Sequence record: OQ174501.1
DNA: 64,000 nt
Reading direction: 5' to 3' (one strand)
DNA from: Escherichia phage REP2
A program made the position numbers and the translations under genes. Below, one piece after another: positions 35,288 through 43,607 of this stretch. Under the pieces are notes generated by a model, which was not told where the DNA came from, ran no database searches, and was given only the letters and a program-made list of their open reading frames with translations. Position 1 is the stretch's first letter. Every line of letters starts with the position of its first letter.

Positions 35288-35772
35288 TTTTAAAAACTCG
35301 CTGGTATGATTTAGATGATGGGGACGATGGCATTTCAGTTGATAGAGTTGACTGGAGTGGCTGTTCCGAAGATATGAAAAAATTGTTAATTAGGGAGTTT
35401 AGAATGGGATATCAAGCAGCTAAGCCATCTACTGTAACAGATGATAAATTCGTGTGTATTCAAAATGGTCGTGCTAAGTTAACGAACGCTGATTGGTTCA
35501 CAGATAAGAAGGTTATTCTGTGGTATATTATTAGTTTTCCTGTGACATCATTTGTATTTTGCTTCTTTGGAGAAAGTCCAGTAGGCAGAACGGAAGATTG
35601 GATTCTTTTAATTATACTTGTTAATATTTTTACAGCAGCAGTACTATCAGGAATATGGTGCGTGTTCATTGAAATGCCATGGCGGTTACGTAGGCAGCAA
35701 AAGATTTTTGATGAAAAGAAATATACTCAAAATTTAAATAATTTTATCACTGAATGCAGGAAATTAAAATGA
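35284..35772 (+). CDS. small membrane protein, paralogue family member
   Basis: 162 aa, 2 TM helices, C-terminal FITECRKLK. Confidence 0.55.
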   Translation: MILKTRWYDLDDGDDGISVDRVDWSGCSEDMKKLLIREFRMGYQAAKPSTVTDDKFVCIQNGRAKLTNADWFTDKKVILWYIISFPVTSFVFCFFGESPVGRTEDWILLIILVNIFTAAVLSGIWCVFIEMPWRLRRQQKIFDEKKYTQNLNNFITECRKLK

Positions 35773-36208
35773 AAACATTATCAGCTGGTATTATCTTTAT
35801 GACAGAAGATAAAGATTTATTTATGGGACGAGTTACTGGTTCTCGTAAGCCTGGAATGATGGCACATCGCTGGATATTCCAAAGGGGCGTGTAGAAAATT
35901 CTGATTTAAGCGCATTAGATGCAGCACGAAGAGAATGCTCAGAAGAGACTGGTTTTAACAATTATAATCCAGACCTTCTAGAAGACCTAGGTGTATTTAA
36001 ATATTCTAGTAATAAAGACTTACAGTTATTTTATTATACGATTCCAGTAGAGCATGAGATGTTCAGAAATTGCCGTTGTGAGTCTTATTTTGAAAATAAA
36101 GATGGCGTTATGATTCCAGAGATGGATGCTTTTGCTCTTATTCCTCGTACTCAGTGGCAATATGTGATGGGTCCTTCACTTTACCGAATAATGAACAGCC
36201 TCTTTTAA
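35769..36208 (+). pseudogene. nudE: Nudix hydrolase nudE (e.1), frame disrupted
   Basis: ATG frame reads MKTLSAGIIFMTEDKDLFMGRVTGSRKPGMMAHRW then stops at about 35892; the -1 frame continues DIPKGRVENSDLSALDAARRECSEETGF... (Nudix box) to a stop at about 36206; a single missing G in CTGG-GAT would join them. Confidence 0.6.
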
Positions 36209-38711: not shown

Positions 38712-39074
38712 ATGAAAGCATATCAAATTCTTGAAGGCACACATAAAGGTACTATTTATTTTGAAGATGGTATTCAAGCACGAATTATTGTCTCTAAAAC
38801 CTTTAAAGAGGACTCTTTTGTAGACCCAGAAATTTTCTATGGTTTGCATGCCCGTGAAATTGAAATTGAGCAACAGCCTACAGTTAAAATTGAAGGTGGT
38901 CAACACCTGAACGTTAACGTTCTGCGTCGTGAAACTCTGGAAGATGCAGTTAAGCATCCGGAAAAATATCCGCAGCTGACCATCCGTGTATCCGGTTATG
39001 CAGTTCGCTTTAACTCTCTGACTCCGGAACAGCAGCGCGACGTTATCGCTCGTACCTTCACCGAGAGTTTGTAA
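38712..39074 (+). CDS. autonomous glycyl-radical cofactor (GrcA/YfiD-like)
   Basis: 120 aa; C-terminus [59 protein letters not shown] is a PFL-type glycyl-radical domain. Confidence 0.85.
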
Positions 39075-39295
39075 TGGCAAAGATAATTATTGAAGGTTCT
39101 GAAGATGTGCTAAATGCTTTCGCCGAGTGGTTTAGTAATTCAGGCGAACAGCAATTTAACGAAGCATGGAACATGGGTGATATTAATGGAATTTATCCTA
39201 CGACAGAAATTTCTGTTCAAGGATATGGCATTCATGAACCTATTCGTTTAGTTGAATATGATTTGGGAACAGGTGAGGAAGTAAAATATGATTGA
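39074..39295 (+). CDS. hypothetical protein
   Basis: 73-aa ORF, start overlaps upstream stop. Confidence 0.5.
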   Translation: MAKIIIEGSEDVLNAFAEWFSNSGEQQFNEAWNMGDINGIYPTTEISVQGYGIHEPIRLVEYDLGTGEEVKYD

Positions 39296-39554
39296 AGACA
39301 TTAAAGGTTATAAACCACATACTGACGATAAAATCAGTAAAGTGAATGCTATCAAAGATGCTGAAGTTCGTTTAGGGCTTATCTTTGATGCTTTATATGA
39401 TGAATTCTGGGAAGCATTTGATAGCTGTGAAGATGATGAACTCGCGAAGAATTACGCCGAAAGCCTCGATCAGTTAACTATTGCTAAAACGAAACTCAAA
39501 GAATCCAGTATGTGGGCTTGTCGTGCAGTGTTCCAACCAGAGGAAAAATACTAA
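39288..39554 (+). CDS. hypothetical protein
   Basis: 88-aa ORF, overlapping neighbours. Confidence 0.5.
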
Positions 39555-39832
39555 TGGCTCAATTAAGCGCAGGGTTTGGTTATGAGTATTATACTGCCCC
39601 TCGTCGTGTATCTGTTGCTCCTAAGAAAATTCAAAGTCTTGATGATTTCCAGGAAGTAGTTCGTAACGCTTTCCAGGACTATGCACGTTATCTTAAAGAA
39701 GATTCACAGGACTGTCTCGAAGAAGATGAAATTGCTTACTATGAGCAGCGTCTTGAACAGCTCAAAAATCTACATGAGGTTCGTGCAGAAGTTTCAAAGT
39801 CTATGAATAAATTGATTAGATTTAAAGAATAA
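39554..39832 (+). CDS. hypothetical protein
   Basis: 92 aa from the first ATG. Confidence 0.5.
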
Positions 39833-39834
39833 CT

Positions 39835-39864
39835 GTTTACTTTTCCTCTTGACTGTGGTATAAT
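39835..39864 (+). promoter_or_regulatory. T4-type early promoter
   Basis: GTTTAC-N18-TGGTATAAT upstream of regB. Confidence 0.75.
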
Positions 39865-39891
39865 TTTTCTATCAGTTAAGAGGAGAATAAC

Positions 39892-40353
39892 ATGACTATC
39901 AATACAGAAGTTTTTATCCGTCGAAATAAGCTTCGTCGTCACTTTGAGTCGGAGTTTCGTCAAATTAACAATGAGATTCGTGAGGCATCAAAAGCAGCAG
40001 GAGTCTCATCGTTTCATCTAAAATATTCTCAACATCTTCTTGATCGTGCAATTCAACGGGAGATTGATGAGACATATGTTTTTGAATTATTCCATAAAAT
40101 AAAAGACCATGTTTTAGAAGTTAATGAATTCCTGAGTATGCCTCCGCGTCCTGACATTGACGAGGATTTTATTGATGGGGTTGAATATCGTCCTGGACGT
40201 TTAGAAATCACAGATGGAAATCTTTGGCTTGGATTTACAGTTTGTAAACCTAACGCGAAGTTCAAAGACCCGTCACTTCAATGTAGGATGGCAATTATCA
40301 ACAGTCGTCGTTTACCAGGAAAGGCTTCTAAAGCAGTAATTAAAACTCAATGA
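39892..40353 (+). CDS. regB: site-specific endoribonuclease RegB
   Basis: 153 aa MTINTEVFIRRNKLRRHFESEFRQINNEIREASK..., matches remembered T4 RegB. Confidence 0.95.
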   Translation: MTINTEVFIRRNKLRRHFESEFRQINNEIREASKAAGVSSFHLKYSQHLLDRAIQREIDETYVFELFHKIKDHVLEVNEFLSMPPRPDIDEDFIDGVEYRPGRLEITDGNLWLGFTVCKPNAKFKDPSLQCRMAIINSRRLPGKASKAVIKTQ

Positions 40354-40360
40354 GGTAAGC

Positions 40361-40906
40361 ATGAGAAAAGCACTACTCGCTGGTCTATTGGCCATTTCAA
40401 TGATGGCACATAGCTCCGAGCATACTTTCAGTAATGTCCAACTCGATAACATGCGTTACGCGTATCAATTCGGGGAACAATTTTCTAAGGATGGAAAATA
40501 TAAAACACACAAAAATATCCACAAGAGCGGATTAGGTCATATAATGGCTGCTATTTTATGGCAAGAAAGCTCTGCCGGAGTTAATTTAAAATCTAAACCA
40601 AAGCATCATGCCTATGGAATGTTCCAAAATTATTTGCCTACTATGCGAGCAAGAGTTAAGGAACTTGGTTATAATATGACCGATGCTGAAATAAAAAGAA
40701 TGTTGAATAAACGGTCCAATTCAGCTTCCTGGGCGTACATTGAACTTTCTTATTGGTTAAATATACATAAGGGCGATATAAGAAAGGCGATATCCTCTTA
40801 TAATTCGGGATGGAATGTTAAAGCAGGTTCTAAATATGCTTCTGAAGTCCTAGAAAAGGCTAATTACCTTAAAAATAATAAACTTTTGGAAATAGTAAAT
40901 GACTAA
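40361..40906 (+). CDS. secreted lytic-transglycosylase-like protein (vs.1 position)
   Basis: 181 aa; signal peptide; SLT-like motifs LWQESS, AYGMFQ, SYNSG. Confidence 0.6.
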   Translation: MRKALLAGLLAISMMAHSSEHTFSNVQLDNMRYAYQFGEQFSKDGKYKTHKNIHKSGLGHIMAAILWQESSAGVNLKSKPKHHAYGMFQNYLPTMRARVKELGYNMTDAEIKRMLNKRSNSASWAYIELSYWLNIHKGDIRKAISSYNSGWNVKAGSKYASEVLEKANYLKNNKLLEIVND

Positions 40907-41240
40907 AATTTTGGTTTTATGTATAGGATTAATTTCATTTTCTGTGTTAGCAGATACATCATATACTGAAATTAGAGAGTATGTAAACCGTACTGCCGCG
41001 GATTATTGTGGGAAAAATAAAGCATGCCAAGCTGAATTTGCGCAGAAATTAATATATGCATATAAAGACGGAGAAAGAGATAAATCAAGCAGATATAAAA
41101 ATGATACATTGTTAAAACGATATGCTAAAAAGTGGAATACTTTAGAATGTTCAGTTGCGGAGGAGAAAGATAAAGCCGCTTGTCATTCAATGGTTGACCG
41201 TTTAGTAGATTCTTATAATCGAGGATTGAGTACTAGATGA
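40899..41240 (+). CDS. small secreted protein (vs position)
   Basis: 113 aa with signal peptide MTKILVLCIGLISFSVLA; vs identity is by synteny only. Confidence 0.4.
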   Translation: MTKILVLCIGLISFSVLADTSYTEIREYVNRTAADYCGKNKACQAEFAQKLIYAYKDGERDKSSRYKNDTLLKRYAKKWNTLECSVAEEKDKAACHSMVDRLVDSYNRGLSTR

Positions 41241-41716
41241 TTGTAAAATATATCAAGGGCGATATTGTCGCCCTATTTCTTCAAGGTAATATTATTGCGC
41301 ACGGGTGCAATTGCTTCCACACAATGGGCTCTGGCGTAGCGGGTCAATTAGCAAGAGCCTATCCCAAAATTTTAGAAATAGATAAAACCACTACCGAGTA
41401 CGGTTCTCGTGATAAATTAGGCGATATGTCTATTGTTTTTAAACATAGTCCTACGGGATTTGGTATATGCTATAACCTGTATACACAATACGAACCGGGT
41501 CCTAATCTTGATTATGGTGCTTTAGTAAACTGCATGATAGAATTAAATCTACAGGCAGAAACCCTTTTGTTTAAACCAGTAATTTACATTCCACGCATAG
41601 GTTGCGGTATTGCTGGCGGCGATTGGGATAAGGTTTCTAAATTAATCGACATGTTTACTCCTGATATTGATTTAATAGTGGTGGATTATGAAAGTACATT
41701 ACCCGCATCCGTTTGA
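41237..41716 (+). CDS. macro-domain protein (ADP-ribose binding/processing fold)
   Basis: 159 aa; GDIVALFLQGNIIAHGCNCFHTMGSGVAGQL and IPRIGCGIAGGDW resemble macro-domain signature motifs. Confidence 0.6.
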   Translation: MIVKYIKGDIVALFLQGNIIAHGCNCFHTMGSGVAGQLARAYPKILEIDKTTTEYGSRDKLGDMSIVFKHSPTGFGICYNLYTQYEPGPNLDYGALVNCMIELNLQAETLLFKPVIYIPRIGCGIAGGDWDKVSKLIDMFTPDIDLIVVDYESTLPASV

Positions 41717-41900
41717 TCCTAAAAACAAAGTGGAAATTATTCGTCAATGGGAACGCATTTGCCGTACTAAATGCCCAATTAATAGTCCACATGATGTAGA
41801 TAAAGACTATATTGGAACATTCGTTGAATATACCTTTATTGATAGGAAAGGTCGTAAACAACATGTAGAAGAATATTGTTTAAAGGTTACATGGTTATGA
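41688..41900 (+). CDS. hypothetical protein
   Basis: 70-aa ORF. Confidence 0.45.
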   Translation: MKVHYPHPFDPKNKVEIIRQWERICRTKCPINSPHDVDKDYIGTFVEYTFIDRKGRKQHVEEYCLKVTWL

Positions 41901-42103
41901 GCCAAACTAGTATTCTTAAAAATGCCCACTGCGAAAAGTGTGAATGGCCAGTTGTTTTTGCTTTATGTAATGATGAAATGGCTTGTGATTTCGATTATTG
42001 GTGCTATTGTTCTAATAAAGGATGCATCAATCATAAAGGTGAAGGATTTTATTCGGGATTTTATCCTTATCCAGATTTCGTTAAAGAAGGTAAACCGAAA
42101 TGA
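41876..42103 (+). CDS. Cys-rich hypothetical protein
   Basis: 75-aa ORF with CxxC...CxxxxC...CxC pattern; start uncertain. Confidence 0.45.
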   Translation: MFKGYMVMSQTSILKNAHCEKCEWPVVFALCNDEMACDFDYWCYCSNKGCINHKGEGFYSGFYPYPDFVKEGKPK

Positions 42104-42269
42104 ATAGTTCTGAGTTACAATATGAAGTGTTACGTGAACTTGATAATTTAATTGAACTCGCTGTTAATAAAGGTTTTGCCATTGGAATTGGTCAAAAAGA
42201 TACTGGTCATTTAACTATGGAAATATTTAAGCAAAAGCGAATTATTTTAAAACTCCTGGAAATTAATAT

Positions 42270-42455
42270 ATGAGTCTGAGTAAAGAACAAAAAGATAAAT
42301 TGTTTGAGCTTATCCATGAACTTCTAGATGAGCATACAGAAGCAAACACCTTTTATGATGAATACGGCCCGCTATCTCCCGAACAGCAAGAAGAATTTGC
42401 TGATCGGTTTGATAAGAAAGAAAACGAATTAATAGCTTATGTGAATATGCTTTAA
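42270..42455 (+). CDS. hypothetical protein
   Basis: 61-aa acidic ORF. Confidence 0.45.
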   Translation: MSLSKEQKDKLFELIHELLDEHTEANTFYDEYGPLSPEQQEEFADRFDKKENELIAYVNML

Positions 42456-42464
42456 GAAGGTGAT

Positions 42465-43046
42465 ATGGCGAGTTTAATTTTTACTTACGCAGCAATGAAT
42501 GCTGGAAAATCTGCTTCTCTTTTGACTGCTGCACATAATTATAAAGAACGCGGAATGGGTGTATTAGTTCTTAAGCCTGCTATTGATACTCGCGATTCTG
42601 TCTGTGAAGTCGTTTCTCGCATTGGAATTAAGCAGGAAGCGAATATTATTACGGATGATATGGATATTTTTGAGTTCTATAAATGGGCTGAAGCACAAAA
42701 AGATATTCATTGTGTATTTGTAGATGAAGCTCAGTTTTTAAAAACTGAACAGGTGCATCAATTAAGTCGAATTGTTGATACATATAATGTTCCTGTTATG
42801 GCTTATGGGCTAAGGACTGATTTCGCTGGAAAATTATTTGAAGGTTCTAAAGAACTTTTGGCGATTGCAGATAAACTTATTGAACTAAAGGCAGTTTGTC
42901 ATTGTGGTAAAAAAGCTATTATGACAGCTCGATTAATGGAAGATGGAACACCAGTTAAAGAAGGTAATCAAATCTGTATTGGTGATGAAATTTATGTTTC
43001 TTTGTGTAGAAAACATTGGAACGAATTAACTAAAAAGCTCGGTTAG
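42465..43046 (+). CDS. tk: thymidine kinase
   Basis: 193 aa; P-loop MNAGKS; C-terminal Zn-binding CHCGKK...C; matches remembered T4 Tk. Confidence 0.95.
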   Translation: MASLIFTYAAMNAGKSASLLTAAHNYKERGMGVLVLKPAIDTRDSVCEVVSRIGIKQEANIITDDMDIFEFYKWAEAQKDIHCVFVDEAQFLKTEQVHQLSRIVDTYNVPVMAYGLRTDFAGKLFEGSKELLAIADKLIELKAVCHCGKKAIMTARLMEDGTPVKEGNQICIGDEIYVSLCRKHWNELTKKLG

Positions 43047-43088
43047 TGCAAAAGTTATAAATAGGTTTATCTAACTAAAGGGGTATAT

Positions 43089-43301
43089 ATGCTACAATTA
43101 ACTGAAAAGCAACTTCGCAATCTTACTGTTCTTCAATTAGATGAAATTCGTAGGGAAGTTGGAAATATCATTTCAGCTTTGCGTCGAGAAGTATCACTCA
43201 ACCAATCTCCGGCAGACTATACTAGATTGCGAAATTTTGAAAAATACCTTGATAAAGTTAAGGCCGTGCATCGGCATAAAGTAAATACAGGACAAAAATG
43301 A
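43089..43301 (+). CDS. hypothetical protein (rI.1 position)
   Basis: 70-aa ORF with RBS. Confidence 0.5.
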
Positions 43302-43313
43302 TAGGAGGCCTTT

Positions 43314-43607
43314 ATGGCCTTAAAAGCAACGGCACTATTTGCCATGCTAGGATTAGCGTTTGCCTTATCTCCACCAATTGAAGCGAATGTCGATCCTCAT
43401 TTTGATAAATTTATGGAATCTGGTATTAGACACGTTTATATGCTTTTTGAAAATAAAAGCGTAGAATCATCTGAACAGTTCTATAGTTTTATGCGAACGA
43501 CTTATAAAAATGACCCGTGCTCTTCCGATTTTGAATGTATAGAGCGAGGCGCGGAGATGGCACAATCATACGCTAGAATTATGAACATTAAATTGGAGAC
43601 TGAATGA
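43314..43607 (+). CDS. rI: lysis-inhibition regulator (antiholin) RI
   Basis: 97 aa with N-terminal signal-anchor, adjacent to tk as in T4. Confidence 0.8.
   Translation: MALKATALFAMLGLAFALSPPIEANVDPHFDKFMESGIRHVYMLFENKSVESSEQFYSFMRTTYKNDPCSSDFECIERGAEMAQSYARIMNIKLETE

What the first reader, a model, noticed from the sequence alone, without database searches (positions are those of the whole stretch)
41237..41716. Macro-domain protein in the early region
The 159-aa ORF between vs and tk has GDIVALFLQGNIIAHGCNCFHTMGSGVAGQL near the N-terminus and IPRIGCGIAGGDW near the C-terminus, matching the two signature regions of macro domains (ADP-ribose binding / ADP-ribosyl hydrolase). T-even phages use ADP-ribosylation (Alt, ModA, ModB), and several bacterial defences use ADP-ribose-derived signals or NAD+ depletion, so a phage macro domain could be a regulator or an anti-defence enzyme.
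Basis: partly seen in the sequence, partly recalled or inferred. Interest (0 to 1): 0.45.

Follow-up and report, generated by a model that had tools for sequence, protein, structure and literature searches.

The report
Phage T4-type macrodomain gene tk.4 (adfM)
The ORF is a real macro-domain (ADP-ribose-handling) protein, but it is the already annotated tk.4 gene of T4-like phages, whose T4 counterpart was recently shown to protect the phage against the DarTG2 DNA-ADP-ribosylating defence; here it is present as a common but strongly diverged allele.

Summary
ORF 41237-41716 (+) encodes 159 aa with both quoted motifs. It passes the Pfam Macro threshold (32 vs 22 bits), models confidently (pLDDT 94) and superposes on TARG1, BT1257, Poa1p, DarG and SCO6735. 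The window is a Tequatrovirus and the gene is tk.4, between vs and tk.3. Its A1pp/macro domain was noted in 2006 and is annotated in RefSeq. A 2025 preprint showed that T4 tk.4 is required for resistance to DarTG2 and renamed it adfM. So the finding is correct but already known.

Two details go beyond the annotation.
- This allele is only 58% identical to T4 Tk.4, while flanking genes are 91-100% identical. The divergence is confined to the ORF. The allele occurs in about 312 phage records.
- The family has an invariant Gln84 where TARG1 and DarG have the catalytic Lys. That matches SCO6735, a proven thymidine-ADP-ribose DNA hydrolase. It is also 39% identical to Adpp, a phage ADP-ribose-1''-phosphate phosphatase that works with the NARP1 NAD+-rebuilding pathway, which this phage lineage lacks.

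Most likely function: removal of DarT2-added ADP-ribose from phage DNA (inferred, not tested for this allele). A phosphatase side activity is possible.

The parts
41237..41716 (+). tk.4 (adfM-type) ORF, 159 aa including stop codon; stand-alone macrodomain
   Evidence: ORF; Pfam Macro; annotated tk.4 in LR746311, 'phosphatase' in REP3, 'macro domain-containing protein, pfam01661' in Sf21 RefSeq.
41221..41230 (+). Purine-rich stretch (GAGGA..GAG) upstream of the ATG, a plausible ribosome-binding site; lies inside the 3' end of vs
   Evidence: Read directly from the sequence. The region is 100% identical to T4. Function is inferred.
41300..41314 (+). Codons for H22-G23-C24-N25-C26. H22 and N25 correspond to SCO6735 H24 and N27 (N27 positions the catalytic Gln)
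   Evidence: H22, G23, N25 and C26 are invariant in 57 family members. Correspondence comes from profile-BT1257 and BT1257-SCO6735 alignments. Mutational data are in PMC9411070.
41327..41344 (+). Codons for G31-S32-G33-V34-A35-G36, the first glycine-rich ADP-ribose-binding loop
   Evidence: G33 and A35 invariant, G31 >=90% conserved. Aligns to the GxG loop of TARG1/BT1257.
41486..41488 (+). Codon for Gln84, at the position of catalytic Lys84 of TARG1, Lys80 of DarG and Gln85 of SCO6735
   Evidence: Invariant in the family. The profile alignment places it opposite TARG1 K84 and the BT1257 Gln. The BT1257 Gln aligns with SCO6735 Q85. Q85A abolishes SCO6735 activity.
41591..41626 (+). Codons for P119-R-I-G122-C-G124-I-A126-G-G-D-W130, the second (phosphate-binding) loop. 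A126 sits where TARG1 has catalytic Asp125
   Evidence: P119, G122, G124 and W130 invariant. Alignment to TARG1 'PRIGCGLDRLQW'. G122/G124 correspond to SCO6735 G126/G128.
41265..41730 (+). Diverged cassette relative to T4: nucleotide identity drops from 93-100% to 30-85% and recovers just after the tk.4 stop
   Evidence: Sliding-window comparison with T4 NC_000866. Per-gene amino-acid identities: tk.4 57% global (58% by BLASTP) against regB 99%, vs.1 99%, vs 96.5%, tk.3 91%, tk 99%.
39892..41240 (+). Upstream co-directional genes regB (39892-40353), vs.1 (40361-40906) and vs (40899-41240), forming a tightly packed cluster with tk.4
   Evidence: ORFs; annotations. A promoter-like site TTTACT-17-TATAAT at 39836-39864 lies upstream of regB, but promoter-like sites are not enriched over shuffles.
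41688..41900 (+). tk.3, the downstream gene whose start overlaps the last 29 nt of tk.4

Best explanation
The ORF is the tk.4 gene of a T4-like (Tequatrovirus) phage. It encodes a stand-alone macrodomain of the TARG1/ALC1-like class. It most likely binds the ADP-ribose that the host toxin DarT2 attaches to thymine in single-stranded phage DNA, and hydrolyses the ribose-base bond. That releases ADP-ribose and restores replicable DNA, making the phage resistant to the DarTG2 defence system. In the inferred mechanism, two glycine-rich loops (G31-G36, P119-G128) hold the ADP-ribose. Gln84, held by Asn25, positions the distal ribose for water-mediated cleavage, as proposed for SCO6735. This replaces the lysine used by TARG1 and DarG. 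What is shown: the domain and fold of this protein; the synteny with T4 tk.4; the genetic requirement of T4 tk.4 for DarTG2 resistance; and the chemistry of SCO6735 and PhiKZ AdfM. What is inferred: that this 58%-identical allele has the same target, and that the T4-type proteins act by enzymatic removal rather than another route.
For: Macro domain above the Pfam threshold. AF2 model pLDDT 94.4. Foldseek top hits TARG1, BT1257, Poa1p, TaqDarG, MtDarG and SCO6735. Family profile against PDB: BT1257 2.6e-19, TARG1 8.6e-17, SCO6735 1e-15, MtDarG 5e-12. The best NCBIfam and PADLOC hits are both DarG. Same locus and order as T4 tk.4 (vs - tk.4 - tk.3), with 58% identity and E=1e-70. A T4 tk.4 knockout is sensitised to DarTG2, and tk.4 was the single significant transposon-screen hit. 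T4 and T2 lacking adfA/adfN remain DarTG2-resistant (PMC11825919). Residues equivalent to SCO6735 H24, N27, Q85, G126 and G128 are invariant in 57 family members. SCO6735 cleaves DarT-made thymidine-ADPr, and Q85A and N27S inactivate it. A distant phage macrodomain, PhiKZ gp104, removes DarT2 ADP-ribose from DNA in vitro.
Against: No experiment exists for this allele, and 42% of its residues differ from T4 Tk.4. Even for T4 only the phenotype is shown, not the enzymatic activity. The protein lacks the SCO6735 DNA-positioning lysines (K34 corresponds to S32; K89 lies in a loop that is 4-7 residues shorter here). It is acidic (pI 5.0), although PhiKZ AdfM is also acidic. By sequence it is closer to a proven small-molecule enzyme, Adpp (39% identity, E 1.6e-25), and to Poa1p than to any DarG.
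Confidence: 0.6

Rival explanations
1. Its main substrate is a small molecule. It would be an ADP-ribose-1''-phosphate phosphatase like phage Adpp or yeast Poa1p, converting the product of RES-type (aRES) NAD+ phosphorolysis, or another soluble ADP-ribose derivative, into ADP-ribose. This need not exclude the DNA activity, because both reactions remove a substituent from C1'' of the distal ribose.
For: 39% identity (E 1.6e-25) to Vibrio phage Gary Adpp, which converts ADPR-1P to ADPR in vitro. Adpp shares H22, N25, Q84 and the GxGxxGGDW loop. Poa1p is among the best PDB matches. The NARP1-adjacent macro of Acinetobacter phage phiAbaA1 nests inside the Tk.4-like clade in an NJ tree without bootstrap support. 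PHROG 335 and RefSeq both label the protein 'phosphatase'.
Against: Adpp helps only together with NARP1 (Adps + Namat), and deleting any of the three genes abolishes anti-aRES activity. No Adps or Namat homolog exists in the window or in the rest of the closely related Sf21 genome (tblastn). None of the Namat-positive Escherichia phages actually listed (89-145 kb) is a T4-type genome; only 30 of 2047 records were listed. The much closer T4 ortholog has a DarTG2 phenotype. The 'phosphatase' label is an annotation transferred from the old A1pp domain name.
Confidence: 0.2
2. It reverses protein (or RNA) ADP-ribosylation. It would either tune the phage's own Alt/ModA/ModB modifications or erase host-imposed protein ADP-ribosylation.
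For: T4-like genomes encode Alt, ModA and ModB (Sf21 annotation). TARG1 and SCO6735 also de-modify proteins.
Against: Alt/ModA/ModB make arginine-linked ADP-ribose, which is removed by ARH/DraG-type enzymes, not macrodomains (established knowledge). The TARG1 dyad K84/D125 used for Glu/Asp-linked ADP-ribose is absent, replaced by Q84/A126. tk.4 is not linked to alt or mod genes. No phenotype of this kind is reported.
Confidence: 0.07
3. It destroys or sequesters ADP-ribose-derived immune signals (Thoeris cADPR isomers, His-ADPR and the like).
For: Macro domains bind ADP-ribose derivatives. Comparative genomics has proposed that phage macro, NADAR and Nudix domains mainly target soluble ADPr derivatives (PMC9503650).
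Against: No experimental or contextual link was found. The known anti-Thoeris proteins named in the papers read here belong to other families.
Confidence: 0.05
4. It neutralises DarT2 mainly by binding the toxin (interaction-inhibition) rather than by catalysis. The allelic divergence would then track different DarT2 variants.
For: Catalytically dead SCO6735, DarG and TARG1 still inhibit DarT in vitro. The surface of the protein is the diverged part, while active-site residues are invariant.
Against: Strict invariance of the catalytic-centre residues argues for catalysis. The protein lacks the C-terminal DarT-binding domain of DarG (159 aa against a 338-position DarG model).
Confidence: 0.05

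Closest known systems
T4 Tk.4 = AdfM (NP_049723; anti-DarT factor Macrodomain, preprint 10.1101/2025.11.20.689424)
   Same: Same locus (vs - tk.4 - tk.3), same size class (155 vs 159 aa), 58% identity with E 1e-70, and the same invariant residues including Q84.
   Different: 42% of residues differ although neighbouring genes are 91-100% identical. The G-rich loop reads IGCGIAGGDW here and IGAGIGKGNW in T4. There are four extra C-terminal residues overlapping tk.3. The function of this allele is untested.
SCO6735 (Streptomyces coelicolor; PDB 5E3B) and BT1257 (PDB 2FG1/2AFC), Gln-type ALC1-like macrodomains
   Same: Same fold and class. H, N, Q and the GxG residues of the catalytic centre are conserved. 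SCO6735 cleaves DarT-made thymidine-ADP-ribose.
   Different: About 25-27% identity. The 'mobile loop' after the Gln is shorter here, and the DNA-positioning lysines K34/K89 are not conserved.
Adpp of Vibrio phage Gary and other NARP1-associated phage macro proteins (preprint 10.64898/2026.01.28.702374)
   Same: 31-39% identity to five of the seven NARP1-associated proteins compared (24-27% to the other two) and the same motifs. A sister group in the NJ tree.
   Different: Adpp genes sit in Adps-Namat (NARP1) operons, whereas tk.4 does not, and this phage lineage has no NARP1. Most Adpp proteins have HQ(C/A)NC and YGQ where Tk.4 has HGCNC and YTQ, and they have a longer loop after the Gln.
DarG antitoxin macrodomain (PDB 5M31/5M3I; NCBIfam NF048014) and PhiKZ gp104 AdfM (PMC13309987)
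   Same: Macro fold (TM 0.73-0.78). The target of the T4 ortholog is the same defence system, DarT2.
   Different: Catalytic Lys (FPTK) instead of Gln. DarG has a second DarT-binding domain and is encoded next to DarT. Sequence relation is only remote (PhiKZ gp104 blastp E 0.015; DarG model 27.7 bits against a cut-off of 250).
Human TARG1/OARD1 (PDB 4J5R) and yeast Poa1p (PDB 6LFQ)
   Same: Best structural matches; same class of macrodomain.
   Different: 20-24% identity. The TARG1 K84/D125 dyad is replaced by Q84/A126.

Membership tests
Macro domain superfamily (Pfam PF01661) | Sequence score above the curated gathering threshold over the full domain | tested here: met
   32 bits against a cut-off of 22, E 1.3e-7, profile positions 2-117 of 118.
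Macro domain superfamily (Pfam PF01661) | Three-layer alpha/beta/alpha macro fold with a mixed central sheet | tested here: met
   AF2 model pLDDT 94.4, pTM 0.89, with alternating strands and helices. 155 PDB matches at E<=0.001; all but a few of the 50 listed are macrodomain structures.
Macro domain superfamily (Pfam PF01661) | Conserved glycine-rich loops lining the ADP-ribose cleft | tested here: met
   G31/G33/A35 and P119/G122/G124/G127/G128 are invariant or >=90% conserved and align to the corresponding loops of TARG1/BT1257.
Macro domain superfamily (Pfam PF01661) | Actual binding of ADP-ribose | not testable with these tools
   Needs ITC or a thermal-shift assay with purified protein.
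T4 Tk.4 / AdfM orthologous group | Position between vs and tk.3 in a Tevenvirinae genome and clear full-length homology to T4 Tk.4 | tested here: met
   Synteny. 58% identity over 155 aa without gaps, E 1e-70.
T4 Tk.4 / AdfM orthologous group | Required for phage growth on a DarTG2 host | not testable with these tools
   Shown only for the T4 allele.
Gln-type ALC1-like thymidine-ADPr hydrolases (SCO6735/BT1257 type) | Gln at the TARG1-K84 position, with the His and Asn of the H-x-x-N motif and the GxG phosphate-binding loop | tested here: met
   H22, N25, Q84, G122 and G124 are invariant.
Gln-type ALC1-like thymidine-ADPr hydrolases (SCO6735/BT1257 type) | Extended 'mobile loop' after the Gln and DNA-positioning lysines (K34, K89) | tested here: not met
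   The loop is about 6 residues shorter than in BT1257/SCO6735. S32 sits at the K34 position.
DarG antitoxin (NCBIfam NF048014, PADLOC DarG) | Score above the equivalog cut-off; two-domain architecture with a C-terminal DarT-binding domain | tested here: not met
   27.7 bits against a cut-off of 250. Only model positions 2-142 of 338 are matched, and the protein is 159 aa.
DarG antitoxin (NCBIfam NF048014, PADLOC DarG) | Catalytic lysine (TaqDarG K80) | tested here: not met
   Gln84 occupies this position.
DarG antitoxin (NCBIfam NF048014, PADLOC DarG) | Encoded next to a DarT toxin gene | tested here: not met
   The neighbours are vs and tk.3.
TARG1-type terminal ADP-ribose protein glycohydrolase | Catalytic dyad Lys84/Asp125 | tested here: not met
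   Q84 and A126 lie at the aligned positions.
Adpp / NARP1-AP ADPR-1''-phosphate phosphatase | Homology to the characterised Adpp of Vibrio phage Gary | tested here: met
   38.7% identity over 142 aa, E 1.6e-25.
Adpp / NARP1-AP ADPR-1''-phosphate phosphatase | Gene located in or next to an Adps-Namat (NARP1) operon | tested here: not met
   No Adps or Namat homolog in the window or in the remaining parts of the Sf21 genome. Contrast PAK_P4, where the three genes are adjacent.
Adpp / NARP1-AP ADPR-1''-phosphate phosphatase | ADPR-1''P to ADPR conversion | not testable with these tools
   Needs an LC-MS assay.
MacroD/YmdB O-acetyl-ADP-ribose deacetylase ('RNase III regulator/inhibitor' label in some records) | Score above the NCBIfam equivalog cut-off | tested here: not met
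   NF001661: 15.7 bits against a cut-off of 291. The label in records such as MZ502380 and in JGI names is a transferred annotation.

The most novel reading that the evidence does not exclude
The tk.4 locus may be a diversifying anti-defence cassette. The collection holds at least three allele groups: about 312 records of the window type, 224 of the T4 type, and 159 of a type 80-90% identical to T4. These alleles might differ in substrate or partner specificity. One possibility is a bifunctional enzyme that cleaves both thymidine-ADP-ribose on DNA (anti-DarT2) and ADPR-1''-phosphate or other C1''-substituted ADP-ribose derivatives. That would link two recently described phage counter-defences, AdfM and Adpp, as one enzyme family with one chemistry.
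Probability: 0.2. Interest if true: 0.5.

Novelty: already known. Interest (0 to 1): 0.2.

Why it matters
As a discovery it matters little. The macro (A1pp) domain of tk.4 has been noted since 2006, the RefSeq entries already say 'macro domain-containing' or 'phosphatase', and the T4 ortholog now has a defined anti-DarTG2 role. The residual value is practical. Only the T4 allele has been tested, yet a 58%-identical allele is at least as common in sequenced T4-like phages. Knowing whether it protects against the same DarT2 variants, or also handles ADPR-1''-phosphate, would help predict the host range of therapeutic T4-like phages. It would also clarify how one macrodomain family serves two counter-defences.

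Tried and rejected
It was rerun without that row.
2. Promoter and terminator scan of 39000-43400: promoter-like sites are not enriched (15 against 16.5+/-3.5 in shuffles). The early-transcription claim therefore rests on T4 literature and gene order, not on this scan.
3. Search for NARP1 genes, to test the Adpp rival: nothing in the window or in the Sf21 genome chunks (best chance hit E 0.5).
4. Isoelectric point as a proxy for DNA binding: uninformative. Window Tk.4 has pI 5.0, but the proven DNA enzyme PhiKZ AdfM has 5.05.
5. HGCNC against HQCNC, and YTQ against YGQ, as discriminators between AdfM-like and Adpp-like proteins: rejected, because the NARP1-adjacent macro of phage phiAbaA1 has the Tk.4-type motifs.
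6. The MAFFT alignment of distant references placed Q84 one column off TARG1 K84. I relied on the HMMER profile alignment, which agrees with the published structural equivalence Q85 = K84.
7. The annotations 'RNase III inhibitor', 'O-acetyl-ADP-ribose deacetylase' and 'leucine aminopeptidase' seen in some records were rejected as transferred or erroneous labels.
8. The first literature query failed because a search term was too short.

Full report
**Observation.** The ORF exists exactly as described. It runs from 41237 to 41716 on the + strand, starts with ATG and encodes 159 aa, and both quoted motifs are present verbatim. Its start codon overlaps the stop of the upstream gene (ATGA), and its last 29 nt overlap the next gene. 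The protein passes the curated Pfam Macro threshold (PF01661: 32 bits against 22, E 1.3e-7, nearly full-length). It matches PHROG 335 at E 1.2e-71. It has relatives in 2789 phage records and 777 database clusters at E<=1e-5. An AlphaFold2 model built on 56 homologs is confident (pLDDT 94.4, pTM 0.89). Its best PDB matches are all macrodomains: TARG1, BT1257, Poa1p, Thermus and Mycobacterium DarG, and SCO6735 (probability 1.00, TM 0.7-0.83).

**Identity of the gene.** The surrounding 2.8 kb is 100% identical to Escherichia phage REP3 and 99-99.7% identical to many Tequatrovirus genomes. In annotated relatives the gene is tk.4, in the order regB, vs.1, vs, tk.4, tk.3 ... tk.
- T4 RefSeq already says 'phosphatase; contains A1pp phosphatase motif'.
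- Sf21 RefSeq says 'macro domain-containing protein, pfam01661' for this very allele.
- A 2006 comparative paper reported the A1pp domain in tk.4 orthologs (PMC1524935).
- A 2022 survey found macro domains in 41% of myoviruses (PMC9503650).

**Known function of the ortholog.** A November 2025 preprint (10.1101/2025.11.20.689424) ran a transposon screen of T4 on a DarTG2 host. tk.4 was the single significant hit, and a clean knockout was sensitised. The authors noted similarity to the M. tuberculosis DarG macrodomain and renamed the gene adfM. This fits the earlier observation that T4 and T2 remain DarTG2-resistant without adfA and adfN (PMC11825919). The enzymatic step, removal of ADP-ribose from thymidine in DNA, was inferred there rather than shown. 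Biochemical proof exists for two other macrodomains:
- PhiKZ gp104, also called AdfM (PMC13309987). It is only remotely related to Tk.4 (blastp E 0.015) and carries the DarG-type catalytic lysine.
- SCO6735 (PMC9411070).

**Anatomy.** In an alignment of 57 family members the invariant residues are H22, G23, N25, C26, G33, A35, D49, G62, N80, Y82, Q84, P119, G122, G124 and W130. A profile of this alignment hits the following in the PDB:

| PDB match | E-value |
|---|---|
| BT1257 | 2.6e-19 |
| TARG1 | 8.6e-17 |
| SCO6735 | 1e-15 |
| Poa1p | 1.2e-14 |
| MtDarG | 5e-12 |
| TaqDarG | 6e-10 |

This places the protein in the ALC1/TARG1-like class. In that alignment Gln84 lies opposite TARG1 Lys84 and the BT1257 Gln, and Ala126 lies opposite TARG1 Asp125. 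The BT1257-SCO6735 alignment makes Gln84 equivalent to SCO6735 Gln85. It also equates H22 and N25 with H24 and N27, and G122/G124 with G126/G128. In SCO6735, Q85A abolishes and N27S nearly abolishes hydrolysis of thymidine-ADP-ribose. The phage protein therefore has the Gln-type catalytic centre. It does not have the Lys type of DarG/TARG1. It also lacks the long 'mobile loop' and the two DNA-positioning lysines of SCO6735. T4 AdfM shares all of these features.

**A diverged allele.** This protein is only 58% identical to T4 Tk.4, whereas the flanking genes are far closer:

| Gene | aa identity to T4 |
|---|---|
| regB | 99% |
| vs.1 | 99% |
| vs | 96.5% |
| tk.4 | 57% (global; 58% by BLASTP) |
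| tk.3 | 91% |
| tk | 99% |

Nucleotide identity collapses at about 41265, roughly codon 10, and recovers at about 41730, just past the stop. This is an allele or cassette replacement confined to the ORF. In the phage collection about 312 records carry this allele at >=90% identity. About 224 records carry the T4/T2 allele at >=90%, and a further 159 are 80-90% identical to T4. Only the T4 allele has been tested.

**The main rival.** A January 2026 preprint (10.64898/2026.01.28.702374) describes Adpp, a Poa1p-like phage macrodomain in NARP1 operons. Adpp dephosphorylates ADPR-1''-phosphate, the product of the aRES defence, so that NARP1 can rebuild NAD+. Using the sequences in its Table S1, the window protein is 39% identical to the characterised Vibrio phage Gary Adpp (E 1.6e-25) and shares H22, N25, Q84 and the GxGxxGGDW loop. 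In a quick NJ tree without bootstrap support, most NARP1-associated macros are sister to the Tk.4 clade and one (phiAbaA1) nests inside it. The phosphatase reading is therefore chemically plausible. Against it as the primary role:
- Adpp works only together with Adps and Namat.
- Neither has a homolog in the window or in the rest of the closely related Sf21 genome.
- In PAK_P4, by contrast, the three genes are adjacent.
- The far closer T4 ortholog has the DarTG2 phenotype.

**Other readings.** Reversal of Alt/ModA/ModB modification is unlikely. Those are arginine-linked, and the TARG1 dyad for acidic-residue linkages is absent. No link to Thoeris signalling was found. The labels 'RNase III inhibitor' and 'O-acetyl-ADP-ribose deacetylase' in some records are transferred annotations (NF001661: 15.7 bits against a cut-off of 291). 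The protein is not a DarG antitoxin proper. It scores 27.7 bits against a cut-off of 250, has no second domain, no lysine and no adjacent DarT.

**Verdict.** The observation and the macro-domain interpretation are correct, and the anti-defence idea is right in kind. The feature is already annotated, and its T4 ortholog is already functionally assigned. I give about 0.6 to removal of DarT2-made thymidine-ADP-ribose from phage DNA as the function of this allele. I give about 0.2 to a primarily small-molecule (ADPR-1''P) role. The two are not exclusive. Open and testable points remain: whether the diverged allele has the same range, and whether AdfM and Adpp are one bifunctional enzyme family.

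Noticed in passing
window 35754-36208 (+): The nudE (T4 e.1) Nudix hydrolase gene is split by a 1-nt deletion in a G-run at about 35871, relative to Sf21 and all other close relatives. The Nudix box lies downstream of the frameshift. Among 506 matching phage records only REP3 has the identical 457-nt version; the others listed span 458 nt. It is either a recent inactivating mutation or a homopolymer sequencing error. It is relevant because T4 NudE is reported to hydrolyse ADP-ribose (own knowledge).
   Followed up: partly
window 41876-42455 (+): The segment between tk.3 and tk is also mosaic. tk.2 (42270-42455) is only 54% identical to T4 tk.2. Where T4 has tk.1, there are two small ORFs (about 41897-42103 and 42100-42273), named RB32ORF111c/110c in LR746311. 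The whole tk.4-tk.1 stretch behaves as a hyperplastic region.
   Followed up: partly
window 41256-41274 (both strands): An 8-bp GC-rich hairpin (AGGGCGATATTGTCGCCCT) followed by a T-rich run lies inside the first 40 nt of tk.4, exactly where identity to T4 starts to fall. It could be a coincidence, since terminator-like sites are not significantly enriched (5 against 2.6+/-2.1).
   Followed up: no
window 41324-41716 (+), Met30 start: Some database entries (cluster P0002, 130 aa; for example Shigella phages SHFML-26 and SHFML-11) annotate the gene from the internal Met30. That would remove the invariant H22 and N25. It is probably a start-codon mis-annotation.
   Followed up: no
window 40899-41240 (+), vs gene: According to the HIDEN-SEQ preprint, the immediately upstream gene vs (valyl-tRNA synthetase modifier) was the most strongly depleted T4 gene in minimal medium. 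tk.4 therefore sits next to another conditionally important gene, with overlapping stop and start codons.
   Followed up: no
L005 11286-12508 and 17709-18341; L006 18794-22909 and 25709-26167 (Shigella phage Sf21, NC_042077): The closest complete relative carries two Alt-like ADP-ribosyltransferases, ModA and ModB. It also carries homologs of T4 gp30.3 (AdfN, anti-DarTG1) and gp61.2 (AdfA). This lineage thus appears to stack several anti-DarTG factors. None of these lie in the window.
   Followed up: no
literature: The name AdfM is used for two only remotely related macrodomains: T4 Tk.4 (Gln-type) and PhiKZ gp104 (Lys-type, DarG-like). Pairwise blastp between gp104 and the T4 protein gives E 0.058 (0.015 against the window allele).
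   Followed up: yes
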